Source: Nitrospiraceae bacterium
GTDB taxonomy: Bacteria > Nitrospirota > Nitrospiria > Nitrospirales > Nitrospiraceae
Length of the DNA stretch: 64,000 bases
Reading direction: 5' to 3'
Assembly (NCBI GenBank): GCA_037442105.1
Contig: JBBIQV010000006.1
Location: forward strand, 1-64,000
A model generated the notes under the pieces. The model was given only the letters and a program-made list of their open reading frames with translations. It did no database searches and was not told where the DNA came from. The first letter of the stretch is position 1; each line of letters opens with the position of its first letter. This document shows, piece after piece, positions 1,516 through 63,076 of this stretch. Made by a program: the position numbers and the translations under genes.

Positions 1516-1543
1516 CCATCACTCCTCACGCATCACCCATCAC
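1516..1543. repeat. Heptamer tandem array (CCATCAC-type x4)
   Basis: CCATCAC TCCTCAC GCATCAC CCATCAC between cheA and cheW. Confidence 0.75.
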
Positions 1544-1551
1544 CGTCTTCT

Positions 1552-3798
1552 TCACGCCGCCACCGCCTCGCCACGGCGTGCCAGTTCGATCAGCCCGCGC
1601 ACATCCAGGATGAACGCAACGGTTCCGTCGCCCAGGATCGTGGCACCGGCGATGCCCTCGACTTTCCGGAAATTCCGTTCGAGGCTCTTGATGACGACCT
1701 GCTGCTGCCCCAGCAACTCGTCCACCATGACCGCGACACGCCCGCTCTCGGTCTCGATGATCACGAGGATCGCGCCGGCAGAATCGTCGTCCTCGGCCTC
1801 GATCGAAAAAGTTTCGGCAAGACGAATGATCGGCAGATGCGCGCCCCGCACATTCACCACGTCTCCTTTACCGAGGACCGTTTGTATCGCATCCGGGGTC
1901 GGCTTGACGGACTCGAGGATGGACACCAACGGGATGATGTAACTTTCCTGCCCCACGCGAACGGTCATCCCCTCGACGATCGCCAGCGTCAACGGCAGCT
2001 TCAGCGTGAACGTCGTGCCTTTGCCGGCCGCCGTGCGGATACTCACCGTCCCGCCGAGCGATTCGATGTTCCGCTTCACCACATCCATGCCGACGCCCCG
2101 GCCGGAGACGTCGGTGACCTTGTCGGCGGTGGAGAAGCCGGGCCGGAAAATGAGCGACCACATCTGCTCGTCGCTCAACTTGTCGGTCTCCGAAATCAGC
2201 CCCTGTTTCACGGCCTTGGCGAGAATCTTTTCGCGATTGAGGCCGCGGCCGTCGTCTTCGACCGTGATGCAGATATTGCCGCCCTCATGGTACGCATTCA
2301 TCTTGATGACGCCCTGGTCCGGTTTGCCCGCCGCCACCCGCTCGTCCGGCGGTTCGAGGCCATGATCCGCCGAATTGCGGACCAGATGGGTTAACGGATC
2401 GCCGATCGATTCGATCACGGTCTTGTCCAGCTCGGTCTCTTCGCCGTTCATCACGAACCGGATTTTCTTGCCGTTCTTGGCCGCCAAATCGCGCACCAGG
2501 CGTGGAAAACGGCTGAAGACCTGCCCGATGGGGAGCATGCGGATGCCCATGACACGTTCCTGGATCTCGCGGGTGTTCCGCTCGAGCTGAGCCGTCCGTT
2601 CCAGCAGAACCGGCAATTTCGACATGTCGAATCCTTTTCCCAACGCGCTCAACATGGATTGCGTGATCACCAGTTCCCCGGCCAGGTTGATCAGTTTGTC
2701 GATTTTGGCGGTATCCACGCGGATGGAAGCGGTGTCGGCCTTCTTGGCGTGCGCCGCGGACTCCAACTGCCTCTGTTTCTCAAGCGCCTGGGCGATCTGC
2801 TGCGGGGTCACCGCCTTCTGCTCGATCAGTATTTCCCCCACCCGCTTCTGCTGAGCCAAGGCGTTATTCAAGGTGTCCTGTGTGACGACGCCGGTCTCGA
2901 CGAGTATTTCGCCGAGAGGTTTGGGCTCGCGGGCTTCGCAGGTTGAGGCTGAGGTCGAGGCTAAGGTTGAGGATGACCCCTGAGAATCTTCCTTAACCTC
3001 AGCCTTGACCTCAACCTTCTCAATCGTGAGCACGCTGTCTTCACGAACGAAATCGAATACCCCTTCCACCACGGCACGGTCCTTCGATGTTTCGACTTCC
3101 ACTGCCCATGACAGATAGCACTGCTCCGGGTCCATCTCGGACAGGTTCGGAAGACGACTTGTATCAACCGTCACCGACATGAGCCGACCCAGGTCGCCAA
3201 GTTCTTTCAGCATCTGGATCGGGTCCAATCCTCTTTGGAACAACCACGGAGGCGGAGTCCAGGCGATGGTGTAACGGCAATTATGGGCTAGAGGCGCGGG
3301 GGACTGGCCCCTTTCTGAGGGGGTAGGGGACTGGCTCCGGCCAAGAAGGGGGACAGTCCCCTGGGGGGGGGGACAGTCCCCGCCGGTGCCTGTCCCCGCA
3401 TTCGCCTGTCCCGGAGACTGACTGGCCTCCAGTTCGGCACCGAGGCGACCGAACGTCTCTTCGTCGACCGGCGCCCCCGTCCGCGCCGCCTCCAGAAGGG
3501 ATTTCAGACAATCCGTAGCGCGCAACAGGATATCGATAAGGGGACCGGTGACGGCCATTTGTCCGTTCCGCAACTGGTCTAGGAGCGTTTCCATCTTGTG
3601 CGTGAACTGCCCGACCGCGGTGAATCCGAACATGCCGCTGTTACCCTTGATCGAATGGGCTGCGCGGAAGATGCGGTTCAGCAGGTCCAAGTCTTGAGGG
3701 TGCTGTTCGAGCTGCAGCAACCCCTCTTCAATGGTGGAGAGGTGCTCGCTCGATTCCTCGAAGAATGCATCCTGGAATCTGGAAAGATTGGTGCTCAC
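1552..3798 (-). CDS. cheA: Chemotaxis histidine kinase CheA (system 1)
   Basis: Hpt IFRAAHSIKG, HLVRNSADHG, DDGRGL, SGRGVGMDVV, C-terminal CheW domain; GTG start overlaps cheY stop (GTGA). Confidence 0.96.
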   Translation of the reverse strand: MSTNLSRFQDAFFEESSEHLSTIEEGLLQLEQHPQDLDLLNRIFRAAHSIKGNSGMFGFTAVGQFTHKMETLLDQLRNGQMAVTGPLIDILLRATDCLKSLLEAARTGAPVDEETFGRLGAELEASQSPGQANAGTGTGGDCPPPQGTVPLLGRSQSPTPSERGQSPAPLAHNCRYTIAWTPPPWLFQRGLDPIQMLKELGDLGRLMSVTVDTSRLPNLSEMDPEQCYLSWAVEVETSKDRAVVEGVFDFVREDSVLTIEKVEVKAEVKEDSQGSSSTLASTSASTCEAREPKPLGEILVETGVVTQDTLNNALAQQKRVGEILIEQKAVTPQQIAQALEKQRQLESAAHAKKADTASIRVDTAKIDKLINLAGELVITQSMLSALGKGFDMSKLPVLLERTAQLERNTREIQERVMGIRMLPIGQVFSRFPRLVRDLAAKNGKKIRFVMNGEETELDKTVIESIGDPLTHLVRNSADHGLEPPDERVAAGKPDQGVIKMNAYHEGGNICITVEDDGRGLNREKILAKAVKQGLISETDKLSDEQMWSLIFRPGFSTADKVTDVSGRGVGMDVVKRNIESLGGTVSIRTAAGKGTTFTLKLPLTLAIVEGMTVRVGQESYIIPLVSILESVKPTPDAIQTVLGKGDVVNVRGAHLPIIRLAETFSIEAEDDDSAGAILVIIETESGRVAVMVDELLGQQQVVIKSLERNFRKVEGIAGATILGDGTVAFILDVRGLIELARRGEAVAA
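2940..3017. repeat. Hexamer-repeat inverted hairpin, in frame within cheA
   Basis: AGGTTG AGGCTG AGGTCG AGGCTA AGGTTG AGGA ... TCCTTAACCTCAGCCTTGACCTCAACCT. Confidence 0.8.
3299..3381. repeat. Four GGGGACWGNNNCC palindromic (REP-like) units within cheA linker
   Basis: GGGGACTGGCCCC, GGGGACTGGCTCC, GGGGACAGTCCCC x2. Confidence 0.75.
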
Positions 3799-4166
3799 GC
3801 CGGCAACACCTTCTGAATCACCTTCAGCATTTGATCGGGGTTGAACGGTTTGACGATCCATCCTGTCGCGCCGGCGGCTTGGCCGGCTTTTTTCTTGTCG
3901 TCGGCCGATTCGGTCGTCAGCATCAGAATCGGTGTGAACTTCAGCGCCGGCATTTTCCTGATCTCCTGGATCAGGGTGATTCCGTCCATGACGGGCATGT
4001 TCAAATCGGTCACGACGAGATCCGGTTTGGTGCCGTTCGTGAGCTTGCCTACCGCTTCTTTCCCGTCGCCGGCTTCAACGACCTGAAACCCCGCATTGGT
4101 GAGGGTGAAGGTCACCATTTGTCTCATCGTCGGCGAATCATCCACGACCAAGACTGTTTTGCCCAT
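3795..4166 (-). CDS. cheY: Single-domain response regulator CheY (system 1)
   Basis: VLVVDDS, VTDLNMPVMDG, MLTTES, WIVKPF; ATG 4166 with GAGGAGG. Confidence 0.93.
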   Translation of the reverse strand: MGKTVLVVDDSPTMRQMVTFTLTNAGFQVVEAGDGKEAVGKLTNGTKPDLVVTDLNMPVMDGITLIQEIRKMPALKFTPILMLTTESADDKKKAGQAAGATGWIVKPFNPDQMLKVIQKVLPA

Positions 4167-4182
4167 GTGGAACCTCCTCAAC

Positions 4183-4265
4183 AATAGCGAGCAGCAAGCA
4201 GCGGAGCTTCACAGCTCCAAGCTATTCGCTATCAGCTATCAGCTATTCGCTCTTGGCTATTCGCT
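4183..4265. repeat. Heptamer arrays in inverted orientation (GCTATTC-type)
   Basis: AATAGCG AGCAGCA AGCAGCG, inner GGAGCT/AGCTCC hairpin, then GCTATTC GCTATCA GCTATCA GCTATTC GCTCTTG GCTATTC. Confidence 0.8.
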
Positions 4266-4272
4266 CCATTCT

Positions 4273-5394
4273 TCAGAACAGCGTCACGTTGCCGTCCGCC
4301 CCGCATGATGCGGCACCGACCGCTTGGGGTGCGCGCCCATGTCCATTCATAGCCGTAGAGAGCACCTGCCGTTCGTGTTCCATCGTGTAGGTCTTCGCGA
4401 TCTCTTTCAGCATCGCAGAATAGTCGTATACCCCGGGGACGTCGCGTTCTTCCGCAAGTGCTTGCAGATGGAGGCGGATCTGCTCCAGGGGCTCGATGAC
4501 GTGCTCGAGACGCTGCCTTGTGATGTCCTGGAATTGCAACGACATCACGATGTCGGCGACATCTTCGGCCAGCTCCTGCGCACGAGTCGTCGATTGGGAC
4601 ACACTGATCTGAAGTAGATGGTTGCGTTCGAGCAGCGATTTGGTCATCGCATCCAGTTTGTCTTTCATATAGAGTGTCTTGGTCAGGTCGATCGACGCCA
4701 TTTTGCGAATCCTCTCCATGGCCGATGTGCTGCTGCGTTGCACCTCCGTGAGCAACTGTTGAATGTTGCTCGCCGCTTGGCCCGAACGATTGGCCAGCGT
4801 GGTGACTTCGTCGGCGACCACGGCGAAACCACGGCCGTGCTGGCCGGCGCGCGCCGCTTCGATTGCGGCATTCAACGCCAGGAGCCTGGTCTGTTCGGCA
4901 ATGAATTCGATGTCGGCCAAAATGCCGCCGATGGCCTTCGTGCTCTGGCTCATGTCGTCCATGCTCTCCGAGACCCGGACTGCGATTTGGGAGGAGTCCA
5001 TGACATCCTGCACAAACCCGCTGAGCATGCTCTCCGATTGCTGGAGCAGCGCTTCGAGGCTCTGGTCGTCTTGGGTAAACACTTGGCTGGCCTCACCGGC
5101 CTGCTCCGTCGTGCGCTGAGAAATCGCTTGGAACCGGGTCGAGAGACCCAGGGCGGCTTGTTCGGTTTGGTTAATGACCGCTTTCATTTGCTGATTGAGG
5201 ATCGGAAGGACCGGCAAGATGCCTTGCGCGCACGTCTTCCAGTTCTCGCAGCGACTCGCCATCGCCTCGCTACGAACCTTCAGTTCGGCCAGCTCTACAG
5301 CAAGAGGTGCTCGCCATTGCCGCCAACACCACCATCCGCCCGCCAAGGCTCCGGCCAAAACTCCTCCTCCGACATACAGTGCGGCTTCCAACAT
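4273..5394 (-). CDS. Methyl-accepting chemotaxis protein, single N-terminal TM, LQFQD tail
   Basis: [33 protein letters not shown]; ends GNVTLF. Confidence 0.92.
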
Positions 5395-5458
5395 GCGGTG
5401 TTCCTCAATATCCCGACATGATTGTGTCCAACAAGGCCGGCCGCCTTGACTCCCCACC

Positions 5459-5722
5459 TCACGACGCGAGCGACCCCGGACATCCGATCCGCGCCATGTT
5501 GCGTTTTACCGTGTCCGGTGCCCCGGTCACGTGAAGGCGACCGGAACGTTGTGCGGCGAGTATCAACTGCAAAGCGGAGGTGTCCACACGATTCACCTGC
5601 GCGAGGTCGAGGACAACCGGACCCTCTTGAGAGAGTAACGTGACGAGCGCATCCTTGAAGGCAACCGCTTCAAAAATGGTCAGGTCACCGGTCGGCATGC
5701 AATTCTGGTTCGTTGTGGGCAT
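5459..5722 (-). CDS. STAS-domain protein
   Basis: GDLTIFEA...[19 protein letters not shown]. Confidence 0.85.
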
Positions 5723-5740
5723 AGGTCCTGCGTCATGATC

Positions 5741-5768
5741 TTTTCGGTTTTTTTCCGTCGGATCTTGA
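5741..5768 (-). promoter_or_regulatory. Putative sigma-28 (FliA) promoter of chemosensory operon 1
   Basis: TCAA-N16-ACCGAAAA upstream of the STAS gene. Confidence 0.55.
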
Positions 5769-5782
5769 TAGGCGACACGCCC

Positions 5783-6631
5783 TCACATGGGGTGCTCTCT
5801 CGTAGCCCTGTCCGGCTGAGCCGGGAAAGCGGGATCGCCTGCTCCTGGATTATCGGCGATCGGTGGGGTTCCCCCCTCCATCGTGTGACTGATTGGTTCA
5901 TTGGCCTCCGGCGCCGCGGTCTTCTCCGCCAGGACCACGATCTCGACGCGGCGGTTCTTGGCCCGATGTTCGGGGGTGAGGTTGTCGGTGCGCGGCATGG
6001 AATCGGCGCGTCCCATCGCGCTCAAACGTTGAGCCGGCACACCGTAGAGTTCGCTCATGACGCGGACGACGATCACGGCTCGTGTGGCGGACAGTTCCCA
6101 GTTGGACGGAAACTGGGCGGTGCGGATGGGGACGTTATCCGTATGCCCCTCGATCCTGACCTGCCGGTCCAACTCGATCAACACCTCCGCCAACGCCTTC
6201 AGGAATGGAAGTGCGTCGGGGCGGAGCGCCGCTTCCCCGCTGTTGAACATGACGTGGTCAGGAATTGTAATCACGATCTCACCGGACGAGCGCTCGGCAA
6301 CCTGGATGACCTCGAATTGGGCGGGGTCGTTGATGGCCTTCATGAGCGCCCGGAGCTTCCGGACGACCGGCTCTTTGGCCCCGGCGAGCGACGGCTGAAT
6401 AGTGGTCGGCTTGTTGTTGCCGAGTGTGAAGGCCAGCGTGCTGGCCGGCGGGCTCACGATGGGATTGAGCGCGGCTTTGATGGATTCGCTCACGGTGCGG
6501 TACTTCCCCTCATTGACGGAGGAAACGGAGTACATCACCACGAAAAAAGCAAAGAGGAGCGTGATGAAGTCGGCGTACGAGACGAGCCAGCGCTCGTGGT
6601 TCTCGTGCTCTTCGTGTTTTTTCTTCGCCAT
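5783..6631 (-). CDS. motB: Flagellar stator protein MotB
   Basis: ERWLVSYADFITLLFAFFVVMY; OmpA-like IEGHTDNVPI, NWELSATRA, NRRVEI. Confidence 0.95.
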   Translation of the reverse strand: MAKKKHEEHENHERWLVSYADFITLLFAFFVVMYSVSSVNEGKYRTVSESIKAALNPIVSPPASTLAFTLGNNKPTTIQPSLAGAKEPVVRKLRALMKAINDPAQFEVIQVAERSSGEIVITIPDHVMFNSGEAALRPDALPFLKALAEVLIELDRQVRIEGHTDNVPIRTAQFPSNWELSATRAVIVVRVMSELYGVPAQRLSAMGRADSMPRTDNLTPEHRAKNRRVEIVVLAEKTAAPEANEPISHTMEGGTPPIADNPGAGDPAFPAQPDRATREHPM

Positions 6632-6640
6632 ATGTCAGAA

Positions 6641-6723
6641 GTGATGGGTGATGAGTGATGAGTGATCAGTGGGATCACGGACACCATCCGAAAGCTCATC
6701 ACCCATCACTGATCACCCATCAC
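6641..6723. repeat. Heptamer inverted hairpin (GTGATGA/TCATCAC) between motA and motB
   Basis: GTGATGG GTGATGA GTGATGA GTGATCA ... TCATCAC CCATCAC TGATCAC CCATCAC. Confidence 0.85.
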
Positions 6724-7487
6724 TTCTTCTCCTTCGTCCGCTCCGCTTCCGCCAGATAGCCCTCGAGCTTTTCCTGCAACAGCCGAGGGTTCTCGCCCTG
6801 CGCCAGCCCGACGAGCCCCATGATGATGACCATGCGCGCCTCGGCTTCTTCCTTAAGCTTGATCTTGATTTTGTTGGCCATGGGGAGAAAAAAGAGGTTC
6901 GCTGCGCCGACGCCATAGACTGTGGCCACGAACGCGACCGCGATGCCGCCTCCGAGCTTGGAGGGGTCGGCCAGATTTTCCATCACGTGGATCAGGCCGA
7001 GCACGGCACCCAGAATGCCCACGGTCGGCGCATATCCGCCGGCGGCTTCCCATACCTTCGCGCCGAGCACGCCTTGTTCTTCATGATGCTCGACCTCGAT
7101 TTCCAATATCTCGTGCACGGCTTTTGGATCCGTGCCGTCCACAATGAGCTGCACCCCTTTGCGAAAGAACGGGTCTTTGATCTCCTTCATTTTATTTTCC
7201 AGCGCGAGCAATCCCTGCTTGCGTGAAACATTGGCGAGGTCGAGGATTTTCGTGATGGTGCTTTTGACATCGTGATGTGGCCCGCCGATTGTCAAGGACA
7301 GCATGGCGACCCCCCTGAGCACAATCGGCAAAGGATGCTGCACAAAAACCGCCCCGAAGGTCCCGCCAATCACGATGATAAAGGCCGTGAGCTGAAGGAT
7401 AGATCCAAGATGGCCTCCCTCCAGCGCCTGCCCACCGACAATTGAACCCAGCGCGAGGACGACTCCGATTATGGTAGCGATATCCAT
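6720..7487 (-). CDS. motA: Flagellar stator protein MotA
   Basis: SRKQGLLALE, GGYAPTVGILGAVLGLI, AFVATVYG, GENPR. Confidence 0.95.
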   Translation of the reverse strand: MDIATIIGVVLALGSIVGGQALEGGHLGSILQLTAFIIVIGGTFGAVFVQHPLPIVLRGVAMLSLTIGGPHHDVKSTITKILDLANVSRKQGLLALENKMKEIKDPFFRKGVQLIVDGTDPKAVHEILEIEVEHHEEQGVLGAKVWEAAGGYAPTVGILGAVLGLIHVMENLADPSKLGGGIAVAFVATVYGVGAANLFFLPMANKIKIKLKEEAEARMVIIMGLVGLAQGENPRLLQEKLEGYLAEAERTKEKK

Positions 7488-7627
7488 TGACTTATAAATC
7501 CACTTTGATCATAAGCACATCCAGCCTATATCTAAAGTAATGCTTTATATACTCAATAGTATTATTGCACTCTCTCCCGAGAGTTTGATACCGTGGCATT
7601 CCACCTTGGAACACCAGGAGGTGCCGC

Positions 7628-7873
7628 GTGAGTCCAATTGACCACTTAATCCTCGATGCGAAGCAGGCCATTCTGGACGAGCAACACCGGCGCTTTCAGG
7701 CACTCCAGGAAGAAGGGCGCTGGCCGGAAGCCATGCGGCAATTTCAAGTGACGCTCGGTTGTGCATCGGACCTCCTCAACGAATCGCTCCACGTCCTCGA
7801 GCGCGTTCTCGACGCGACCCGCGAGAGGAACTCAGACCCCACCTCCGACGAGGACGCCCTTCCGGATTCCTAG
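7628..7873 (+). CDS. Small hypothetical helical protein
   Basis: 81-aa ORF with CAGGAGG RBS before GTG; divergent from motA. Confidence 0.65.
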   Translation: MSPIDHLILDAKQAILDEQHRRFQALQEEGRWPEAMRQFQVTLGCASDLLNESLHVLERVLDATRERNSDPTSDEDALPDS

Positions 7874-8406
7874 GAGCCCGTTGGTTCTGCGGCATCGCTG
7901 CTTCGTTGGAGAAGCCGGTTGAGGTCGAGGATGATCAGTAGCCGATCCCCGATTCGACCGACGCCCTGCATAAATTCCGATCCGGCGCTCGCACCGACTA
8001 AAGGCGGCGGCTCAATCGCGCTTTTGGAAAGGCGCAGCACCTCGACCACCGAATCCACCAACAGGCCGACCATCCGCTGATGCACCATCGCGACGATAAT
8101 CCGCGTCCGTGACGTTCGCTCGATGGGAGGCAGTCCGAATCGCCGGCGGAGGTTCAATGCCGGAATAATGCGGCCACGCAGGTTGATGACTCCTTCAACA
8201 TAGGGCGGCGCCTTGGGAACAGGCGTGATATCCGTCAAACGATTGATCTCCTGGACGCTCAGGACATCTAAGGCGAATTCTTCGTGCCCTACCCGAGCAA
8301 TGATAAATTGACACAGGTCTTCCGCAAGCGCCGCCGTATGCGAACCGGCTTCGGCCGGTTCAACCGCTGTCCTCTCTGTGGCTGCCCTGTCCTGAGCGAT
8401 CGTCAT
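7870..8406 (-). CDS. cheW: Chemotaxis coupling protein CheW (system 2)
   Basis: FALDVLSVQEINR, GVINLRGRIIP, GLLVDSV. Confidence 0.93.
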   Translation of the reverse strand: MTIAQDRAATERTAVEPAEAGSHTAALAEDLCQFIIARVGHEEFALDVLSVQEINRLTDITPVPKAPPYVEGVINLRGRIIPALNLRRRFGLPPIERTSRTRIIVAMVHQRMVGLLVDSVVEVLRLSKSAIEPPPLVGASAGSEFMQGVGRIGDRLLIILDLNRLLQRSSDAAEPTGS

Positions 8407-8429
8407 GGCATCCTCTCTAAATGAGCCGG

Positions 8430-10022
8430 TCAGATCTTGAACGACCCGACAATGGATTGCAGTTCCACCGCCAGTTGGCTCAGACCGTGGCTGGCTTTGG
8501 CCGATTCGTCGGCGCCGGACGCCGACTCCTTGGTGACCGTCGCGACGCTTTCGATGTCGCCGGCGATTTGTTGGGTCGCCACAAACTGTTCCTCCGCTGC
8601 GACCGCAATCCGGCGGACCATGTCCGCGCTCTCCGTGACCATCTGGACGATGTTTTTGAGCGCCTCGCCGGTCCGGTTGACCAGGTCCACGCCGCTGACG
8701 ACCTTCTGAGTGCCCGCTTCCATGGATTCGACGGCGCCGCGGGTGTCCTGTTGGATCTGGCGGATCATGTCGCCGATTTCCTTGGTTGCTTTGGTCGTCC
8801 GCTCGGCCAGCTTGCGGACTTCATCGGCCACGACCGCAAAACCCCGCCCCTGTTCGCCGGCTCTGGCCGCTTCGATCGCCGCATTCAACGCCAGCAGATT
8901 GGTCTGGTCGGCGATGTCCTCGATGACCCGGACGATCTCCCCGATCTGATCGGACGACTTGCCCAATTTCGCGATGATGGAGGCCGAATTCGATACGGCG
9001 TCGGAGAGCTGGCGCATGCCGCCGATAGTATCGGACACGACCACGCCTCCGTCTTTCGCCGTCTGTACGGCCTGCTCCGCCAGCTCGGCAGCCTTGCCTG
9101 AATTCTGCGCCACCTGGCCGACCGTGGCGTTCATTTCCTCCACAGCCGCCGCCGTCTGGGCGGACCGGCTCTGCAGCGTGTCGGCCCCCTTGGAGATCTC
9201 CTCGGCCGTTGCGGAGAGCTGGGCCGAGGCCGAAGCCACTTGCGCTGTTGCATGAACCACTTTGGCAACGATCCCGTGCAACCTCGGAATGACTTCGTTG
9301 AAGCGGGCGGCGAGTTGTCCCAGTTCGTCACCGCTAGTGACCCGCACTTGAACGGTAAGGTCGCCTTCGGCGAGCTTGTCCATTCCGGCCTTGATTTCTC
9401 TTATGGGAAGCATAAGTCTCCACGCCAATATGAACGAGAAGCCGATCGTGCTGGCCAATACCAACACCATGACCGCCCAAGCCATTGTAACCAACATGGA
9501 CATTCGGCTCGTGGCAGCATCGGCGAATCCCTTCCCCAAGGCGCTAATCGAGGTCACCACTGCCTCGTCGCGCTTCAAGAATTCGTCCACGAAGGTGTTT
9601 CCCACCACCCGGTCGAATTGAATGTAGGCGTCCGCCATTTTCATGCCATGATCGTGAAGTTGCTCCACTGCGCCATTCACCGCGTTGAACTTGGCCTTCA
9701 GGTCGAAATCGTCCGTGTAGCGTTTTGTTAGTTGGCTGAACAGGGCTTTGTACTGAGTGACATGCGCATTGAGCGTGTCCAACGAGTGTGGCTGCTGTAT
9801 CAAGCTGTATTCGCGCAGCCCGAGCCGGATCATATTCACCTCTCGCCGCATGTTGTCTATCTCGTTTGCGGCAAGAATCGCCTGAACCGCATGCTGGGCG
9901 GTGGTCATGTTGAAGATAAGAACGCCCATAATCGGGCAGAGCGCGAATCCGAGCCCCAGAAGAATCTTGGCTCGCAGCCCGACCCATCCCCGTGTCGAAT
10001 CTGTTCTGTGTATCGCGTGCAT
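8430..10022 (-). CDS. Methyl-accepting chemotaxis protein (2 TM, HAMP)
   Basis: [56 protein letters not shown]. Confidence 0.95.
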
Positions 10023-10113
10023 GAGCTTCCCTCCGGCGCCTTCGCGAGACCATCCCGCGCGCAGGTCTTGGGAGGAGATCTCTGAATCCCCTCCTCGCTT
10101 GTTTCGTCCGCTG

Positions 10114-10830
10114 TTATTTCACGGGAATCAGGACGCTGATGGCGCCAGCCAGATCCCCTTCTTTGTAGCCTTCTTTCTTCATTCCAGTGAGATCCTTTTC
10201 ACCTTTCGGTTCGCCATGGCAGCCCAGACAGGACTTAGATGCGTATTCTGGCGACATATATCGCGTTACCTGGTTGCCGCCCATCGCGACGGTTTTCACC
10301 AAGTTCTTTCCTTTTGGATAGGCCGGGCTAGCAAACTCCTTCAACACTTCGGCTTCAAACTCATCGGGCTTGTTGCCCGCGAACCGGTAGTGCTCGGAAG
10401 TTTGCTTCAGGCGGATGCCGGACTTCTGGCCGAATTTCTCCCCCGTCTTCCGGCCCCACAAAGCGGGCAGAAACCCTTTAAACCCTGTGCCTTGCTTATT
10501 GATCAAGGCCTGGGCATCTCCCACAACTTCCTTGCCCGATTCGACGAGCGCGTCGACCACGTTGCTCGTGGGCATCTCACTCTTGTTCGTGTCTTTGTAC
10601 TTGGCCTTCCATTTGCCTTCAAAATACGCGGGCGTGAAGCCCTTGTCGCCCTTGCTCGCGTCGTTGATAAGCTCCTGATGATCGGACACCACCACACGAC
10701 CGGCCTTGAGTACCTTGACCAACACTTCGGCAGTCTTAGCCTCATCCGCCGCATGGGCCAGTCCTGCGCATGAAAGTATCCCCACCGTCACGACACTGCC
10801 GAGGTGTTGAAACCATTGCGTCTTCCTCAT
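10114..10830 (-). CDS. Secreted Tll0287-like (DUF3365) c-type heme protein
   Basis: Signal peptide ending [28 protein letters not shown] heme motif; GDLAGAISV. Confidence 0.85.
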
Positions 10831-10889
10831 GGTATCCTCCTTGTTGTTCCAGACCCGATGACGATCGAGTCGTTGTTGTTTGCCGTTCG

Positions 10890-12575
10890 CTAAACCTTGA
10901 ACGATCCGACGATGCTCTGAAGTTCCACCGCCAACTTCCTCACGTCGGCGCTGGCTTTGGCGGACTCTTGAGCGCCCGAAGCCGATTCTTTTGAGACCTT
11001 GGCGACCTGCTCGACATCACTGGCGATCTGCTGAGTCGCGACCGATTGTTCCTCGGAGGCGACGGCAATTTGCCGGATCATGTCTGCCCCTTCCGACACC
11101 ATGCGCACAATCTGGGTCAGCGCCTCGCCCGTCCTGTTGACCAACTCCACGCCGGCCCCGACCTTCTGCGTGCCCTGCTGCATCGACTCGACGGCCCCGC
11201 GGGTGTCCTGCTGAATCTGCCGGATCATGTCGCCGATTTCCTTGGTCGCCTTGGTGGTGCGTTCCGCCAGCTTGCGGACTTCATCGGCGACCACGGCGAA
11301 CCCGCGCCCCTGTTCGCCGGCTCTGGCCGCTTCGATCGCTGCATTCAACGCCAGCAGATTGGTCTGGTCGGCGATGTCCTCGATGACACGGACGATCTCC
11401 CCGATCTGATCGGACGACTTGCCCAGTTCCGCGATGATCGTAGCGGAGTTCGAGACCGCGTCGGACAATTGCTGCATGCCGGCGATGGTGTTCGCCACGA
11501 CGGTGCCGCCGGCCTTGGCAGTCTGGACGGTCTCTTGCGCCAAGGCAGCCGCCTTCCCGGAATGTTGCGCCACCTGGCTGACCGTGGCGTTCATCTCCTC
11601 CACGGCCGTCGCCGTCTGGGCGGATCGGCTCTGCAGCGTGTCGGTCCCCTTGGAGATCTCCTCGGCCGTTGCGGAAAGCTCGACCGCCGCCGACGCCACC
11701 TTGTCCGTGACCTGCCCCACTTTTCCGATCATCTGCTGCAGCTTTTCCATGAACTGATTGAATGAGCTGCTGAACCGAGCGATTTCATCAGACCCGTGAA
11801 CGGGGACCCGTTGTGTCAAGTCTCCTTCGCCCTGAGCAATATCTCTGGTGATGTCGCTCACGTCATTCAGCGGCTTCAGCACAAGGCTGCGGAGCATCAG
11901 ATACGTTACGACGGCTATGGCCAATACAATGCTGATCATCAGCGCAGTGGAGTTCCGCAGAGACCTCTCCGCTGCCATTTTTCCCTTGTCCATATTCATA
12001 TTGATGACCAGTACCCCAAGCGTGTCGCCGACTTGCTTATCCGTGTGGCATGAGATACAGGCCGCCGCGCTGGCTTTGTCTGCGGAGGCCCGTCGAAAGG
12101 TCATGATCCCTCCTATCTCTTCGATGCGGGAAAGGCTTGCGGCCCCACCCATGATGGCTTCCAGAGCTTCGGTTTCGAAGGGATCTTTGGGCGAGTTATT
12201 CGGATTGAGCGGAGCCTGACTGATGAGTCTGGTGTTGTACAGCCCGCTCTTGTTGGCGTCTTCTCCCATTTCCCGAGTCGCCGTCGCGGGAAATGGGATG
12301 GCGTCCGGATTTCTCGCATGGTCTCTCGCGACGACAATGTCGCCGCCGGCTTTCGATTTCTTGATCTTCCCGACATAGTTCTGCGCGATATAAGCGCGGG
12401 TGATCTTGATCTGAGATTCGAGCAACTGGCCGCGCTGTTCGAGCATCATCGACAGCTTTTCGCCCTCCTGGTAGTGCAGGATGACGAAACCTGCGAGGCC
12501 GATGATCAACGAGGCGACTCCGATGGCGGCTAGAAACTTTGCCCCGATCGTGAGGTCCTTCAGTCGCAGACTCAC
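10890..12575 (-). CDS. Methyl-accepting chemotaxis protein with Tll0287-like heme-c sensor domain
   Basis: [29 protein letters not shown] between two TMs; HAMP; MCP signal domain. Confidence 0.92.
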
Positions 12576-12629
12576 AGCTTCTCCTTTCCCCTCCGGTTTC
12601 TAGGAACCCATCTGGTACCTGAGTGACTC

Positions 12630-13724
12630 CTACACCATGTTGAGAATTTCTCCGACGACGCCCGACAAAGGAACGACTTTATCCGCGTATCCGGCCTCTA
12701 CCACCGCCTTCGGCATGCCGTAGACCACGCACGAGGCCTCATCCTGCGCGATCGTTCGTCCCTTCGCAGCCTTGATGGCTTTCATGCCTTCGAGGCCGTC
12801 GTGCCCCATGCCCGTAAGAACGACGCCGACTCCTCGTTCCCCGTACACCCCCGCGACCGACTGCATCATGACGTCCGCGGACGGTGCATGCAGATGTCCC
12901 TCCACGTTCGGGCTCAAACTCACCTCGATGTTCCTGATCGTGCGCTGCCGGACCCGGAGCTGCGTTCCACCCGGCGCAATGAGCGCGCGACCCGGCAGGA
13001 CGTCGTCGTGTTCGGCGGCTTCGCGAACTTCAAGCCGGCACAATTGATTCAGGCGTTGCGCGAACGGCTTCGTGAAAAACTTCGGCATGTGTTGGACGAT
13101 CACGATTCCGGCCGGCAAGTCGGCCGGCAGGCTCGGCAAGATCTCCATCAACGCTTGCGGACCGCCCGTCGAGCACCCGATCGCGATTACTTTGCCGCCT
13201 CGCGTCGCGGCCACCGCCTTCGACGACAGGCAAGGGGCGAGGGATGAGGGGCGAGAGAAACCCGATGATTGACGATTGACGATTGACGATTGACGAATCT
13301 TATCTTTTGCGCCTGCCGCCGCGATCACCTTGGCGATCAACTCCGTCTGGATGTCTGCAATCCGCGTGACGACGCCGTCGAACTGTTTGGGGATGTAGTC
13401 CACGGCTCCCGACTCGAGCGCAGCCAGCGTTTCCTGTGCTCCCTCCATCGTGAGTGAACTCACCATCAGCACCGGCACCGGATGTTCGACCATGATCCGC
13501 TTCAAGGCTTCGATCCCGTTCATGCCCGGCATCTCGATATCCAGCGTCACCACATCGGGATGCAGTTGCTCCACTAGTTGTATGGCTTCTTCGCCGTTCC
13601 TGGCTGTTCCCGCGACGGTCAGGCGAGGATCGGCCGACAACATGGCGGAGAGGCTCTTGCGCATGAACGAAGAATCGTCCACCACCAGAACTCGGATCGG
13701 CCTGTTCGTCGCACCGGACGCCAT
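12630..13724 (-). CDS. cheB: Chemotaxis methylesterase CheB
   Basis: N-terminal REC; GCSTGGP, VQHMP, LTGMGHDG, VVYGMP; ATG 13724 with AGGAG. Confidence 0.96.
   Translation of the reverse strand: MASGATNRPIRVLVVDDSSFMRKSLSAMLSADPRLTVAGTARNGEEAIQLVEQLHPDVVTLDIEMPGMNGIEALKRIMVEHPVPVLMVSSLTMEGAQETLAALESGAVDYIPKQFDGVVTRIADIQTELIAKVIAAAGAKDKIRQSSIVNRQSSGFSRPSSLAPCLSSKAVAATRGGKVIAIGCSTGGPQALMEILPSLPADLPAGIVIVQHMPKFFTKPFAQRLNQLCRLEVREAAEHDDVLPGRALIAPGGTQLRVRQRTIRNIEVSLSPNVEGHLHAPSADVMMQSVAGVYGERGVGVVLTGMGHDGLEGMKAIKAAKGRTIAQDEASCVVYGMPKAVVEAGYADKVVPLSGVVGEILNMV
13229..13298. repeat. Two heptamer arrays in frame in cheB linker
   Basis: GGCAAGG GGCGAGG GATGAGG GGCGAGA; GATGATT (GACGATT)x3 GACGAAT. 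Confidence 0.8.
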
Positions 13725-13753
13725 GTCGGTCTGCTCCTGCCGTGAAAATGCCG

Positions 13754-15403: not shown

Positions 15404-15410
15404 CGTGCCG

Positions 15411-16613: not shown

Positions 16614-16640
16614 GACGATCCCTCCATCACGGCTTCCCCG

Positions 16641-17615: not shown

Positions 17616-17662
17616 GGGTTCCTCCGTTCTCTCGTGACGCGCCCTGCGCGAACCTCCCACTC

Positions 17663-17732
17663 CCCTAACCGCTCACCACTTACTACTCACAACTTACTAC
17701 TCCCTCATTACCCCTCACGTGCCACGCCTTAC
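17663..17732. repeat. Degenerate heptamer arrays (..TCAC/..TTAC)
   Basis: CCCTAAC CGCTCAC CACTTAC TACTCAC AACTTAC ... TCATTAC CCCTCAC GTGCCAC GCCTTAC. Confidence 0.7.
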
Positions 17733-19664: not shown

Positions 19665-19754
19665 GGGCAGCAAATAGCTGGTAGCCGACAGCCAATAGTC
19701 CTGCAAATATGACGGCGGTTCCGGCTACTTGCTATTCGCCATTTGCTACTCGCT
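19665..19754. repeat. Heptamer inverted hairpin (AAATAGC/GCTATTC)
   Basis: GGGCAGC AAATAGC TGGTAGC CGACAGC CAATAGT ... GCTACTT GCTATTC GCCATTT GCTACTC. Confidence 0.8.
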
Positions 19755-24299: not shown

Positions 24300-24396
24300 C
24301 CGTTGTCCGTCATCCGTAAACCGTCATACCGCCACGGGCAGAGGCTCTTCAGGGAAAACGGTTCACGGCTAACGATTCACGGATAACGGACAACGG
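24300..24396. repeat. Heptamer inverted hairpin (CCGTNNN/NNNACGG)
   Basis: CCGTTGT CCGTCAT CCGTAAA CCGTCAT ... AAAACGG TTCACGG CTAACGA TTCACGG ATAACGG ACAACGG. Confidence 0.85.
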
Positions 24397-24466: not shown

Positions 24467-25366
24467 ATGGCGACCATCATTTCCGTCGCGTCGGGGAAGG
24501 GCGGTGTCGGCAAGAGTGTAGTGGCCGCCAACGTGGCGTTGCTGTTGGCGCAACAGGGCAAGCAGGTCGTCCTGGCGGACCTTGACGTCGGCGGTGCAGA
24601 CGTTCACATCCTCTTCGGCATGCTGCATCCGCCGGTGACTCTGACGGACTTCCTCAACCGCCGGGTCGAGAGTCTCGATGCCGTTGCGCAACCGCTCCCG
24701 ACACATCCCCGCCTCCGCATCATTCCCGGAACGGGGGATACGCTCGCTACCGCCAATATGCCGTACGGGAAGAAGAAGCGGCTGATCCGGCACTTCAGGG
24801 ATGTCGTGGCCGATATCATTCTCGTAGATGTGGGCGCCGGAACGAGCTATCACGCGTTGGATTTCTTCCTGATGGCGGACCATCACCTTGCCGTGGCCAC
24901 ACCCGATCCAACGTCGGTCTTAGACCTCTATCGATTCATCAAATTGGCCGCAATCCGGCGAGTATTGTCGTCGTTTCTGGCTCGGGATGCGATCGCCGAT
25001 GCGCTTTCAGATCGAGACTTTTCGAGCGTGGAGGAAGTGCTGCTCGTGGCGGGCAAAACGGATGAAGCCGGTCGAGCGGTGGCGGAATCGACGCTCCGAG
25101 GATTCCAGCCCTGCCTCATCTTGAACCGGGTGTCCGGCCGATCTCGTATCAACTTCTTACAACTCCGCAAGCTCTTGAAGGAGTATGTCGGGGGCGACTT
25201 GGCGATGCTCGGCGAGATCCCGGACGATCAAGCCATGGAACGGTCCGTGCGAAGCTACCTTCCGGTCGTGGAAGCCGAGCCTCACTCCCCTTCGGCCCAA
25301 GCCCTCCGCCGCATCACCGATGCGCTGCTCCAACAGTTGGGCGAGAGGCCAGAGGTGAGAGGCTAG
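24467..25366 (+). CDS. MinD/FlhG(FleN)-family P-loop ATPase
   Basis: SGKGGVGKS, DLDVGGAD, VDVGAGTS, PDPTS. Confidence 0.9.
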   Translation: MATIISVASGKGGVGKSVVAANVALLLAQQGKQVVLADLDVGGADVHILFGMLHPPVTLTDFLNRRVESLDAVAQPLPTHPRLRIIPGTGDTLATANMPYGKKKRLIRHFRDVVADIILVDVGAGTSYHALDFFLMADHHLAVATPDPTSVLDLYRFIKLAAIRRVLSSFLARDAIADALSDRDFSSVEEVLLVAGKTDEAGRAVAESTLRGFQPCLILNRVSGRSRINFLQLRKLLKEYVGGDLAMLGEIPDDQAMERSVRSYLPVVEAEPHSPSAQALRRITDALLQQLGERPEVRG

Positions 25367-25415
25367 AGGGTTCGCCCTCCCTTTTCCCCTTACCTCTCAC
25401 CCCTCGCCTCTAGCC
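25340..25415. repeat. Heptamer inverted hairpin spanning the stops of two convergent genes
   Basis: GGCGAGA GGCCAGA GGTGAGA GGCTAGA ... CCTTACC TCTCACC CCTCGCC TCTAGCC. Confidence 0.85.
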
Positions 25416-45397: not shown

Positions 45398-45408
45398 GCC
45401 GCGAAATC

Positions 45409-53802: not shown

Positions 53803-53927
53803 GGGAAGCCGCAGCGGACAGGATGCACAGCCATGCGCGCCATTGCCCTATCGATCACGGTCGTCGCGCATCGTAGCATAGGCATCCCCCCCTCACAATG
53901 ACGCGTCCCATCGTCGTGAATCAGACT

Positions 53928-53987
53928 AGCGAACAGCCGATAGTCAGCAGCGAGTAGCTCAAAACCATTTGCTCTCAGTTATTCGCT
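53928..53987. repeat. Heptamer hairpin, homologue of the 45409 element
   Basis: 52/60 identical ungapped to 45409-45468. Confidence 0.8.
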
Positions 53988-54051
53988 TCTTGGCGATCGC
54001 AGCAGAACTGCTCATGAATAATGCACGCTAGGGTGGTACAGGTTACAATGC

Positions 54052-60476: not shown

Positions 60477-60497
60477 AGCCGATAGCTAATAGCTGAT
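60477..60497. repeat. Short heptamer array
   Basis: AGCCGAT AGCTAAT AGCTGAT. Confidence 0.6.
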
Positions 60498-60510
60498 GGC
60501 ACAAACAGAC

Positions 60511-61489: not shown

Positions 61490-61568
61490 CGTTGGTCGTC
61501 AAGCGTCAACCGTCAATCGCCGGAAAGCCGCCTCCCAACGCATGGCGGACGACGATTGACGAATGTCG
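61490..61568. repeat. Heptamer arrays (CGTCAAN) with partial inverted arm downstream of purF
   Basis: CGTTGGT CGTCAAG CGTCAAC CGTCAAT ... GACGATTGACG. Confidence 0.6.
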
Positions 61569-61580
61569 CTTGGCGGGGTC

Positions 61581-62999
61581 TTAGTGGGAGGACTCGAACA
61601 GGCCGAGCTGCAATTCCTCCGCGCGGGTAAACGAGATGGGATATCGCTCGGTGAAGCAGGCATTGCAATAGTGGCCCGGCGTGCCTGGCGCAGACTTCAA
61701 CATGCCATCCAGGCTGAGATAGGCAAGACTGTCGGCGGTGATGTATTTGCGGATTTCTTCGGTCGAGTGGCTGGAGGCGATCAGCTCTTTTTTGGTCGGC
61801 GTGTCGATGCCGTAGAAGCAGGGGGAAATGATCGGCGGCGAGCTGACTCGCATGTGGACTTCCTTCGCGCCTGCGTTGCGGATCATCTTCACGATTTTCC
61901 GGCTCGTCGTTCCTCGCACGAGGGAGTCGTCCACCACCACCACGCGTTTTCCACGCAACACCTCCGGCACCGCGTTCAACTTCACCTTGACGCCGAAGTG
62001 CCGGATGGATTGCTCCGGCTCGATAAAAGTCCGGCCCACGTAGTGATTGCGAATGAGGCCCGTCTCGAACGGGATGCCGGCTCCTTCCGCATAACCCAGT
62101 GCAGCCGGCACACCGGAGTCCGGCACTGGGATGACCACATCGGCGGGCACCCACGACTCCTGCGCCAACTGTCTCCCCAGGGCTTTCCGTGTGGCATACA
62201 CCGCGTTGGCGCCGAAAATCTTGCTGTCCGGTCTGGCGAAGTACACATATTCGAAGATGCACATCGCCGGCTTCGTCGGCGCAAACGGCCGATGGCTATC
62301 GACGCCTTGTTCGCTCAAGACAACCAGCTCGCCCGGCTCGACCTCGCGCACATATTCCGCGTCCAGCAAGTCGAACGCGCAGGTTTCCGAGGCCACAATC
62401 CAACTGTCGCGGACTCGCCCGAGGCATAACGGCCGCAAGCCATGAGGGTCTCGCGCCGCAATGACGCCGTTGTCGGTCATCAGCACGACGGAAAAGGCCC
62501 CGCGTACCTGGCTGAGCGCGTCCACGACCCGTGCGAGGAACGAATCGGCCCGCGAGTGAGCGATGAGGTGAATAATCACCTCGCTGTCCGAAGTGGACTG
62601 GAAGATGGCACCGTACGCCTCGAGCTCGTTGCGCAGGACGGTCGCATTGATCAAATTCCCGTTGTGCGCGAGCGCGAGATTCCCGAAGGCGAAGTTGACG
62701 GTGAATGGCTGAACGTTCTTCAGATCATTCCCGCCGGCCGTCGAGTACCGATTATGGCCGATGGCCATGTGGCCGGCCAGTCGCTTCAGTGAAGCCTTGT
62801 TGTAGATGTCGGCGACGAGTCCCTGCCCCTTCTCCACATAGAAATGCTCGCCGTCGCCAGACACGATGCCCGAAGCTTCTTGCCCGCGATGCTGCAACGC
62901 ATAGAGGCCGAGGTAGGCCAGGTTGGCGGCTTCCTTGTGGCCAAAGATCCCGAAGACCGCACATTCATCGTGAAATTTGTCGGGAGTGATCAGTTGCAT
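61581..62999 (-). CDS. purF: Amidophosphoribosyltransferase
   Basis: [35 protein letters not shown]. Confidence 0.98.
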
Positions 63000-63000
63000 A

Positions 63001-63076
63001 AGGCTATAGGCGATTGGCTATGGACTATAGGCAAGAACTGTCTGACCCATTGCCTATCGCCCATCGCCTAGCGCCC
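63001..63076. repeat. Heptamer inverted hairpin between purL and purF
   Basis: AGGCTAT AGGCGAT TGGCTAT GGACTAT AGGCAA ... ATTGCCT ATCGCCC ATCGCCT AGCGCCC. Confidence 0.85.

What the first reader, a model, noticed from the sequence alone, without database searches (positions are those of the whole stretch)
1516..63076. Window-wide family of heptamer-array hairpins: same architecture, different unit sequences
Seen: about 15 arrays of 3-6 degenerate 7-nt units (1516, 4183, 6641, 13229, 17663, 19665, 24300, 25340, 45409, 49170, 53928, 60477, 61490, 63001, plus a 6-nt version at 2940). Most have a second arm in inverted orientation across a short loop. Units differ (GTGATGA, GCTATTC, CCGTCAT, GGCGAGA, AGGCTAT, GACGATT), so period and symmetry are conserved rather than sequence. 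They lie at gene junctions, overlap stop codons, or sit in frame in linkers. Established: heptamer STRR repeats of cyanobacteria are similar and of unclear function. Inference: a dedicated mechanism generates or uses them (insertion scars or target sites, RNA processing, or protein docking).
Basis: partly seen in the sequence, partly recalled or inferred. Interest (0 to 1): 0.75.

Follow-up and report, generated by a model that had tools for sequence, protein, structure and literature searches.

The report
Gene-less repeat hairpins tracking ring proteins
The mirror-image runs of 6-9-base repeats between and inside this bacterium's genes are real and use the same units as the arms that enclose small four-helix-bundle genes; across relatives each repeat type is mostly abundant where its matching gene is kept, so the protein likely helps write these repeats into new sites, which would give a testable origin for long-unexplained bacterial heptamer repeats.

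Summary
Confirmed. Period-7 arrays number 218 in the genome against 3-4 in shuffles; 199 of 323 have an inverted partner within 60 bp (controls 7 of 796). Eleven of the 15 named sites are two-armed; four are unpaired.

The arms are the same as those enclosing four-helix-bundle (PF05635, S23p/Avd-like) genes: 5 of 5 in this genome, 55 of 74 with relatives (control genes 22 of 537). Protein clade predicts unit and period (6-9 nt). For four types, empty arrays are more abundant in genomes keeping the matching gene. The AGC type and a held-out 8-nt type fit less well.

Orthologous junctions and protein linkers carry different types in different relatives, sometimes nested. Polarity is fixed (96:1). 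There is no G-U bias on the mRNA strand, and paired arms match each other less than swapped arms. They are not terminators and mostly not copies of one master.

Best reading (0.5): selfish recognition-site arrays formed with the protein's help. No enzyme was identified and no RNA run was listed. The architecture is in print (Geobacter; Coxiella IVS); I found no paper on the protein link. This scan noted that link before on other DNA.

The parts
1516..1544 (-). Single arm, GTGATG(G/A) type, just after the cheA stop (cheA 1552-3798, -); no partner
   Evidence: same unit as the arms of the four-helix-bundle gene at C2:4582
2940..3020 (.). Two-armed hairpin of 6-nt units (AGGTTG/AGGCTG), in frame in the CheA linker
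   Evidence: z -6.4; same unit flanks a four-helix-bundle gene in G014 (L032); G001 and G009 have other types in this linker, G011 none
4183..4265 (.). Two-armed hairpin, AGC type (AGCGAAT), between an MCP-like gene and cheY
   Evidence: z -4.0; no heptamer array at this junction in G001, G009, G011
6640..6724 (.). Two-armed hairpin, GTGATG type, motA-motB junction; first unit includes the motA stop codon
   Evidence: z -10.5; other types, nested types or no array in relatives
13229..13296 (.). Two unpaired arms of different types (GGCGAGG 13229-13259; GATTGAC 13267-13296), in frame in the CheB linker
   Evidence: z +1.6
17663..17720 (-). Single arm (GTRGTRA-like) after the stop of the second cheA (17729-19651, -)
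   Evidence: no fold
19665..19750 (.). Two-armed hairpin, AGC type, cheZ-cheA junction
   Evidence: z -2.6; 10-bp gap without array in G001, GTGATG type in G016
24300..24392 (.). Two-armed hairpin, CCGT type, between divergent HTH_17 and MinD/ParA-like genes
   Evidence: (z -2.8); similar 3' arm beside a partial PF05635 hit in G024 (L132)
25340..25415 (.). Two-armed hairpin, GGCGAGA type, between convergent genes, overlapping their ends
   Evidence: z -6.8; same unit flanks four-helix-bundle genes L089, L098
45409..45475 (.). Two-armed hairpin, AGC type, forming the interior of a MITE-like element whose end (core TCATG.AT.ATGC) follows at about 45480-45510
   Evidence: (z -7.7); copies 94% identical over about 105 nt at C39 and C47
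49170..49246 (.). Two-armed hairpin of 8-nt (7/8) AAGTC units, in frame in a hybrid kinase receiver domain; segment 66 aa vs 44-50 aa in four relatives
   Evidence: z -4.9; same unit flanks four-helix-bundle genes L036, L037, L085
53928..53996 (.). Degenerate AGC-type hairpin inside a MITE-like element, upstream of recG
   Evidence: (z -2.5)
60477..60498 (.). Short single arm (AGC/TCAG-like) at a co-directional junction
61490..61560 (.). Two-armed hairpin, CGTCAAN type, after the purF stop
   Evidence: z -3.0; unit flanks four-helix-bundle genes L041, L092
63001..63076 (.). Two-armed hairpin, GGCTATA/GGCGATG type, overlapping the purL stop (purL-purF junction)
   Evidence: z -4.0; unit flanks four-helix-bundle gene L087; other types or no array in 16 relatives

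Best explanation
These are gene-less pairs of the inverted 6-9-nt repeat arms that enclose small four-helix-bundle (PF05635, S23p/Avd-like) genes, and they likely arise anew at tolerant sites while a genome keeps the gene whose protein is predicted to recognise that unit. Shown: shared units with the cassettes; one unit type and period per protein clade; fixed arm polarity; type-matched abundance across genomes for four types; turnover and nesting of types at the same site; arms that mostly are neither copies of each other nor of one master. Inferred: the protein is a pentameric ring (by homology to 2GSC and 2RLD). It would read the 3-5 core bases of 3-5 successive units and ignore the rest, and would hold unit-bearing strands together so that host repair, recombination or slippage builds or converts an array where the local sequence (often an older hairpin or a stop-codon context) already resembles the unit. 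Also inferred: the arrays are close to neutral for the host. Selection would keep them where they do no harm (short operon gaps, flexible linkers) and remove versions whose arms pair too well. The enzyme is not identified. A minority of AGC arrays spread by riding in a MITE-like element.
For: (1) Cassettes: 5 of 5 PF05635 genes in G000 lie between inverted arms of five types; four of these are the commonest empty-array types here (runs AGC 198, TCAG 92, GTGA 38, AAAT 23). 55 of 74 such genes have same-period arms on both sides vs 22 of 537 control small genes; 50 of 53 heptamer pairs are inverted. (2) Clade and unit: protein pairs at 60% identity or more share the unit in 89-100% of cases vs 2-4% below 40% (Mantel p 0.001). 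Clades with 6-, 8- and 9-nt arms exist and match window sites 2940 and 49170. (3) Load follows the gene: for four types, carriers exceed non-carriers after removing the cassette's own matches (p 0.0003-0.004). For CGTTAAA the five carriers are the five highest of 41 genomes. Type-label permutation over five types gives 0 of 20000. Carriers are scattered on a purF tree, with as many changes as carriers. (4) Turnover: purL-purF has arrays in 10 of 16 relatives by eye (7 of 16 by scan), of several types; CheA linkers carry different in-frame types; motA genes 96% identical have unrelated junctions; a new type is nested in an old one, starting at a look-alike heptamer (L149 vs L150). (5) Not master copies: 3-unit words are shared between loci about as often as in shuffles for AGC, TCAG and GTGA; 6 similar pairs among 80 loops; no convincing loop match to the gene body. 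In L149, 8 of 16 variable positions differ vs 1 of 40 core positions at 23% four-fold divergence (p 0.017). (6) Not tuned for pairing: polarity 96:1; own partners match less than swapped partners (AGC 0, TCAG 1, GTGA 3 of 1000; AT-rich AAAT no effect); no G-U bias. (7) Homologs are five-chain structures; Avd binds an RNA stem-loop with all five protomers and flipped bases in crevices (bioRxiv 2023.10.23.563531, passages).
Against: AGC arrays are abundant in G013 (156 matches, 100% complete), G010 (123) and G004 (47), where the best match to the G000 AGC-type protein is 46% identical or less. The held-out 8-nt type fits 1 of 3 carriers (46, 2, 0). Several window types (CGTCA, GGC, CCGT, 6-nt, 8-nt) have no cassette in G000, which is 87% complete. 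The 54 same-clade cassettes fall on only 27 sites, and 8 of 16 groups are single-site, so much of the clade-unit link is shared descent. One unit (GTGCTGA) goes with two distant clades. Patterns were designed from cassette arms and G000. Independent-pair sign tests go the right way (sum about 7.9 vs 0.6) but none is significant. No enzyme was found: the only RT is a split Abi-like gene, and the Y1 transposase at C8 has its own flanking repeats. TCAG variable positions are purine-rich on the sense strand (p 0.0005), which hints at an RNA-level effect. Binding was not tested.
Confidence: 0.5

Rival explanations
1. mRNA-level control: the arrays are selected RNA elements at operon junctions, bound by the four-helix-bundle ring or cut by RNase III as in 23S intervening sequences. 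They arise by slippage and are kept because they tune message stability or translation.
For: 118 of 134 intergenic hairpins lie in co-directional gaps, vs 72% of gaps of 40 bp or more; 3' arms end a median 17 nt before start codons; TCAG strand asymmetry; RNase III gene present; the Coxiella IVS is cut by RNase III in a stem with heptamers (PMC4990558 passages); Avd binds RNA.
Against: No G-U bias (302 vs 300); sense folds better in only 64 of 118; arms avoid matching; sites switch type or are empty among close relatives; in-frame copies lie inside CheA, CheB and a kinase; arms hug stops only in short gaps (6 of 24 long gaps vs 5.2 expected).
Confidence: 0.2
2. Non-autonomous transposon derivatives (MITE/REPIN-like): whole cassettes or their deleted forms are moved as units by an unlinked transposase, and the four-helix-bundle gene is accessory or cargo.
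For: In 8 of 16 clade groups the same protein and unit occur at more than one site; nesting; 14 of 36 MITE-like elements carry AGC arrays in near-identical sub-lineages, including 45409; three Y1 transposase hits in G000.
Against: Outside the MITE subset, arm strings and loops are mostly locus-specific, with no convincing gene remnant in loops. The best flanking direct repeat is 5 nt or less at 11 window hairpins, and none at 7 of them. In the CheA linker the length barely changes between types (61, 63, 67 aa vs 54 without). The C8 Y1 gene has its own non-heptamer flanking repeats.
Confidence: 0.2
3. Plain polymerase slippage: heptameric simple repeats arise without a dedicated protein, and four-helix-bundle genes merely sit in gaps that tolerate repeats.
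For: Heptamers are the commonest long simple repeats and slippage was proposed for them (as summarised in PMC4679880, passage); unit gain and loss is seen among MITE copies.
Against: Slippage predicts identical neighbours, but adjacent AGC units are identical less often than chance (0.033 vs 0.081). It does not explain a second inverted arm with 96:1 polarity, 55 of 74 vs 22 of 537 enclosure, or type-matched load.
Confidence: 0.06
4. Intrinsic terminators or generic stabilising stem-loops.
For: The 5' arm starts a median 5.5 nt from a stop codon; the stems fold strongly.
Against: The terminator scan of 1-20000 gives 18 sites vs 17.5 in shuffles, none at the seven arrays there. The arrays sit inside operons and ORFs. 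Stems are 25-43 bp with periodic mismatches. No Rfam match in the window.
Confidence: 0.04

Closest known systems
ORF-bearing intervening sequences (IVS) of 23S rRNA with S23p/PF05635 (Coxiella burnetii, Leptospira; PMC4990558, passages read)
   Same: Four-helix-bundle ORF in the loop of a terminal stem, with tandem heptamers just upstream of the ORF. The five G000 cassettes have this layout.
   Different: Here the elements lie between or inside protein genes, not in rRNA. Most have no ORF. Arms are degenerate on both sides and come in more than a dozen 6-9-nt types tied to protein clades. Stems are not tuned for pairing, whereas the Coxiella stem is a near-perfect 28 bp.
Paired tandem hepta/octanucleotide sites of Geobacter metallireducens ('putative global regulator binding sites', classes 1-3; PMC2700814, passages and supplement legends read)
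   Same: 3-5 tandem 7-8-nt units, in pairs on opposite strands with variable spacing, several classes per genome, a different sequence at the same junction (proBA) in a sister species.
   Different: In the passages read they were ascribed to IHF/HU-like regulators, with no link to four-helix-bundle genes. I did not open the supplementary alignments, which may bear on how close the match is.
Heptameric long simple repeats: TAACTGA repeats of Beggiatoaceae (PMC4679880, passages); STRR of cyanobacteria (recalled)
   Same: Intergenic heptamer runs of 2-6 units near stop and start codons, patchy across phyla, origin unknown.
   Different: Described mainly as direct repeats of one unit. Here they are paired, inverted, degenerate and multi-type, with a protein partner candidate.
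Avd of diversity-generating retroelements (bioRxiv 2023.10.23.563531, passages)
   Same: Pentameric barrel described there as similar to S23 proteins; binds an RNA stem-loop through all five protomers.
   Different: No DGR reverse transcriptase, template or variable region found in G000; variation in units is not adenine-specific.
REP/REPIN elements with RAYT transposase (recalled)
   Same: Short intergenic palindromes, lineage-specific bursts, nesting, a gene flanked by its own repeats whose type matches the genome's dispersed copies.
   Different: Arms are tandem degenerate units rather than one conserved palindrome; copies are mostly not near-identical; the flanked gene has no known catalytic activity.

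Membership tests
ORF-bearing 23S rRNA IVS | Inserted in a 23S rRNA helix | tested here: not met
   Window sites and the five cassettes are flanked by protein genes; no 23S gene is assembled in G000, so an rRNA copy cannot be excluded
ORF-bearing 23S rRNA IVS | S23p/PF05635 ORF in the loop | tested here: not met
   None in the window's hairpins (loops 4-32 nt, 10th-90th percentile genome-wide); met for five cassettes elsewhere in G000
ORF-bearing 23S rRNA IVS | Complementary termini forming a stem | tested here: met
   11 of 15 window sites fold, though imperfectly and less well than swapped arms
ORF-bearing 23S rRNA IVS | Excision by RNase III | not testable with these tools
   No RNA run listed; RNase III gene present
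Geobacter paired tandem-repeat sites | 3-5 tandem 7-8-nt units in pairs on opposite strands, several classes | tested here: met
   against the legends read
Geobacter paired tandem-repeat sites | Same consensus units | not tested
   Supplementary alignments not opened
Cyanobacterial STRR | Tandem heptamer arrays between genes | tested here: met
Cyanobacterial STRR | The STRR1-3 consensus units in a cyanobacterial host | not tested
   No source for the consensus was read (one search gave no usable paper); earlier scan notes call the host Nitrospiraceae, which I did not test
REP/REPIN with RAYT | Near-identical conserved palindromic copies | tested here: not met
   Unit order and loops mostly locus-specific; exception: AGC arrays inside a MITE-like family
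REP/REPIN with RAYT | Y1 transposase gene flanked by the same repeat | tested here: inconclusive
   Three Y1 hits. C8 has an AGC-filled MITE about 150 bp downstream but its own different flanking repeats; no AGC run or MITE end near C59 or C38
Diversity-generating retroelement | Reverse transcriptase with template and variable repeats | tested here: not met
   The only RVT_1 hit is a split Abi-like gene beside restriction genes; genome 87% complete
Diversity-generating retroelement | Adenine-specific variation | tested here: not met
   Variable unit positions take G, T, C and A
Intrinsic terminator | Short GC stem followed by a U tract | tested here: not met
   None of 18 scan hits in 1-20000 lies at an array; the rest of the window was not scanned

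The most novel reading that the evidence does not exclude
Each four-helix-bundle clade is the specificity factor of a repeat-writing system. The pentamer sets the unit core and the period (6-9 nt), and with a host polymerase or repair enzyme it writes paired arrays that are diverse from birth into new sites, overwriting older arrays and even protein linkers in frame. This would be a protein-encoded code for bacterial heptamer repeats and an insertion process with neither transposase nor master template.
Probability: 0.3. Interest if true: 0.9.

Novelty: new variant of a known kind. Interest (0 to 1): 0.66.

Why it matters
Two long-open questions meet here: why many bacteria carry an excess of 7-nt tandem repeats, and what the very common S23p/TIGR02436 four-helix-bundle proteins do. 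One genome supplies five proteins, each with its own unit type, so a 5 x 5 binding matrix is a direct test. If the protein also drives array formation, this is a route of small insertion that remodels operon junctions and protein linkers without a transposase. If it only binds, it is still a family of programmable-looking repeat-binding rings.

Tried and rejected
- RNA evidence: no RNA holder listed for a 10-kb ribosomal-operon stretch of this genome, so no reads were laid. This is no evidence either way.
- GxxExxY-type cargo (PF13366): 0 hits in G000.
- Reverse transcriptase partner: one split Abi-like gene, unlinked.
- Targeting of stop codons: rejected, 6 of 24 long gaps vs 5.2 expected.
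- Fold-back copying of one arm into the other: rejected, arms match less than swapped arms. The first version of this test was confounded by strand for TCAG; it was repeated orientation-aware and held.
- Capture of units from random genomic motif copies: variable dinucleotides do not follow coding background.
- Loops as remnants of the gene: only 10-nt chance-level matches to gene bodies among 80 loops.
- Target duplications: none convincing at 11 window hairpins.
- rpsJ between arms (C4:16808): looked like cargo, but its upstream arm is self-palindromic, so it was not counted.
- G029 as an independent new insertion: rejected, its cassette is at the same site as in three family f1 genomes.
- Very close strains of G000: none obtained (best 83% aa in metagenomes; one other genome in the genus).
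- Rfam: 0 matches.
- Literature: searches found no paper linking dispersed heptamer arrays to these proteins outside rRNA. The library lacks most subscription journals. The Mrazek 2007 survey was not read; it is known only from its summary in PMC4679880.
- No structure or complex prediction was run.

Full report
SETTING. The window is G000 contig C6:1-64000 of a 2.81-Mb, 62-contig, 87%-complete genome. It encodes chemotaxis, flagellar, glycosylation and purine genes. Gene calls come from my own dicodon model. Earlier scan notes call the host Nitrospiraceae; I did not test that name.

1. All 15 sites are present. Period 7 gives 218 arrays genome-wide against 4 and 3 in two shuffles; other periods from 4 to 13 give 3-44. 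Of 323 arrays at a looser cut-off, 199 have an inverted partner within 60 bp, against 7 of 796 control positions. A stricter stem filter gives 146 hairpins: 118 co-directional, 8 divergent, 8 convergent, 10 in ORFs, 2 at edges; stems 25-43 bp, loops 4-32 nt. In the window 11 of 15 are two-armed and 4 unpaired. There is no Rfam match, and no terminator-scan hit at the seven arrays in 1-20000.

2. ANATOMY. Each type has a fixed core and free positions: AGC plus 4 variable, TCAGC plus 2, and so on. Measured on an unconstrained middle unit, cores are 87-100% conserved. Arms mostly have 3-5 units. Polarity is fixed: 96 elements read unit-then-complement and 1 the other way, across four types. Adjacent AGC units are identical less often than chance (0.033 vs 0.081). 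An element's two arms share identical units less often than arms swapped between elements, also when orientation to transcription is held: 0, 1 and 3 of 1000 swaps were as low for AGC, TCAG and GTGA. AAAT (217) and GTCA (162) show no such effect. Sense-strand G-U and A-C pairs are 302 and 300 in 118 junction hairpins, and sense folds better in 64 of 118 (p 0.07). One asymmetry goes the other way: TCAG variable positions are purine-rich on the sense strand in both arms (p 0.0005, 30 elements); the other four types show none. The 5' arm starts a median 5.5 nt from the upstream stop and the 3' arm ends a median 17 nt before the next start (122 elements). In 24 long gaps only 6 hug the stop, against 5.2 expected. 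This points to tolerance of the site, not targeting.

3. THE SAME ARMS ENCLOSE FOUR-HELIX-BUNDLE GENES. I looked for this on a recalled lead before consulting earlier notes. G000 has five PF05635/TIGR02436 genes. Each lies between inverted arms of a different type: GCGTGAG, TCAGC, AGC, GTGATG, AAAAT. Among 41 genomes there are 91 PF05635 hits in 25 genomes: 21 of 24 in the family, 3 of 16 outside it. I analysed 74 together and looked at most of the rest separately. Same-period arms flank 55 of 74, against 22 of 537 small control genes. On a tree of 73 proteins (the AGC-type one was left out because it is flanked by whole hairpins), clades carry one unit type each. Pairs at 60% identity or more share the unit in 89-100% of cases, against 2-4% below 40%. 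Clades first scored as armless have 6-, 8- or 9-nt arms, including the types at window sites 2940 and 49170. Nearly every window type has such a counterpart; 17663 is uncertain. Caveats: 54 same-clade cassettes occupy 27 distinct sites and 8 of 16 groups are single-site, so much of this is descent of old insertions; and GTGCTGA goes with two distant clades.

4. EMPTY-ARRAY LOAD FOLLOWS THE GENE. I counted three- or four-unit patterns in 41 genomes (backwards controls near zero except for the AT-rich pattern). For CGTTA the five carriers are the five highest. They include G029 of another family and G003, whose partial cassette turned up only after its count was seen. Permuting which type a genome carries gave 0 of 20000 (five types, uncorrected counts). 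Carriers do not cluster on a purF tree; independent pairs go the same way (about 7.9 vs 0.6 summed) but are too few for significance. Against: AGC arrays abound in G013, G010 and G004 with no close homolog of the G000 AGC protein. A held-out 8-nt type gave 46, 2 and 0 in its three carriers. Many non-carriers have moderate loads, as expected from gene loss or incomplete assemblies but not shown to be so.

5. SITES TURN OVER. At purL-purF, 10 of 16 relatives have arrays by eye (7 of 16 by scan), of several types, and 6 have none. Over 22 junctions, 42 of 196 cells are occupied, unevenly (2 of 2000 permutations); part of this is because overlapping genes leave no room. The CheA linker holds a 6-nt hairpin here, other in-frame types in G001, G009 and three metagenome relatives, and none in G011, with lengths 61, 63, 67 and 54 aa. 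The kinase site adds 16-22 codons. At motA-motB, two contigs 96% identical in motA have unrelated junctions. L149 carries a new GTTTCRA hairpin in place of the centre of the older element kept in L150 (93% identical), beginning at a look-alike heptamer. Its eight units differ at 8 of 16 variable and 1 of 40 core positions, with 23% four-fold divergence between the contigs (p 0.017). This suggests diversity at birth, from one example.

6. MOSTLY NOT COPIES OF A MASTER. Three-unit words are shared between hairpins about as in shuffles (AGC 0.052 vs 0.036, TCAG 0 vs 0.013, GTGA 0.075 vs 0.067; AAAT 0.111 vs 0.023 on 6 hairpins). Only 6 pairs among 80 loops are similar, and none convincingly matches a gene body. 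No target duplications were seen. Exception: a MITE-like family (36 right ends) has an AGC hairpin as its interior in 14 copies by regex, plus two by eye. These fall in near-identical sub-lineages and include window sites 45409 and 53928. So some AGC arrays hitchhike.

7. MECHANISM. Shown: points 1-6. Established: the closest solved homologs have five chains (2GSC, 2RLD); the Xanthomonas protein is a homopentamer, and the Coxiella IVS has tandem heptamers upstream of S23p and is cut by RNase III (PMC4990558, passages); Avd contacts an RNA stem-loop with all five protomers (bioRxiv 2023.10.23.563531, passages). Inferred: a ring reading one core per protomer explains 3-5 units, fixed cores with free spacers, a clade-specific period and fixed polarity. 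Also inferred: the protein promotes formation of arrays, because load follows gene retention while individual sites turn over fast. Avoidance of matching in GC-rich types is best read as loss of over-stable palindromes. No enzyme was found. I put this reading at 0.5, mRNA control at 0.2, transposase-moved derivatives at 0.2, plain slippage at 0.06 and terminators at 0.04. That the window's arrays belong to the same element family as the cassettes I put at about 0.9.

8. WHAT IS KNOWN. Paired tandem 7-8-mers on opposite strands, in classes, with a different sequence at the same junction in a sister species, were described in Geobacter as putative regulator sites (PMC2700814, passages and legends; supplements not opened). 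Beggiatoa heptamers were described as direct repeats (PMC4679880, passages). Nine searches found no paper joining dispersed arrays to these proteins. This scan has noted both the filled cassette (713 findings hold the search words) and gene-less forms on other DNA; those notes are not independent evidence. The tests made here are the type-resolved load test with its failures, the 6-9-nt periods by clade, turnover and nesting at orthologous sites, arm anti-matching, and the MITE route.

9. VERDICT. Real, genome-wide, a new variant of known things (S23p-bearing IVS; heptameric repeats), with an unproven but directly testable mechanism. Interest 0.66.

Noticed in passing
window 45395-45510 and 53915-54020; 36 right ends genome-wide: MITE-like family with long terminal inverted repeats (core TCATGAATAATGC). 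Interiors are either a GC-rich stem or an AGC heptamer hairpin; its transposase is unknown.
   Followed up: partly
G000 C8:20075-20719 (-): RAYT-like Y1 transposase flanked by its own inverted repeats (about 20 bp, not heptameric), with an AGC-filled MITE copy about 150 bp downstream; a second Y1 gene at C59:713-1171.
   Followed up: partly
L139:992-2502 (G000 C14): Abi-like reverse transcriptase split into two overlapping ORFs, beside a type I restriction specificity gene and a Fic/RhuM-like ORF; family names are from reading the translations.
   Followed up: no
G000 C2:17995-18312: The TCAG-type four-helix-bundle gene got no full-length call in my gene model (only a 50-aa ORF), though the frame is open for 150 aa; it may use an unusual start or be decaying.
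   Followed up: no
G000 C4:16770-17157 (L062): TCAG-type arms on both sides of rpsJ in the tuf-rpsJ-rplC operon; the upstream arm is self-palindromic.
   Followed up: no
window 1552-3798 and 17729-19651: Both CheA proteins score a MshEN-related c-di-GMP-binding motif above the NCBIfam cut-off (52.9 and 43.3 bits vs 38); in the first it directly follows the repeat-coded linker.
   Followed up: no
window 36637-40722: A 1361-aa fusion of a B12-binding radical SAM domain with two glycosyltransferase domains in the flagellar glycosylation cluster.
   Followed up: no
L003/L004, L011, L018, L020 (relatives, purF region) and L063: Other non-heptamer palindromic repeats (REP-like and MITE-like) occupy the same junctions in relatives, sometimes beside heptamer hairpins; probably the family of earlier notes e1-8260238 and e1-9990312.
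   Followed up: no
G001 C42:19213-19442 and C46:10302-10362: Long runs of the GTTCTGA unit (many overlapping matches) in the same-genus genome, whose cassette arm of that type is also unusually long.
   Followed up: no
G004 C55:40800-59300; G016 C102:1400-5100: Clusters of several four-helix-bundle cassettes of different unit types within a few kb.
   Followed up: no
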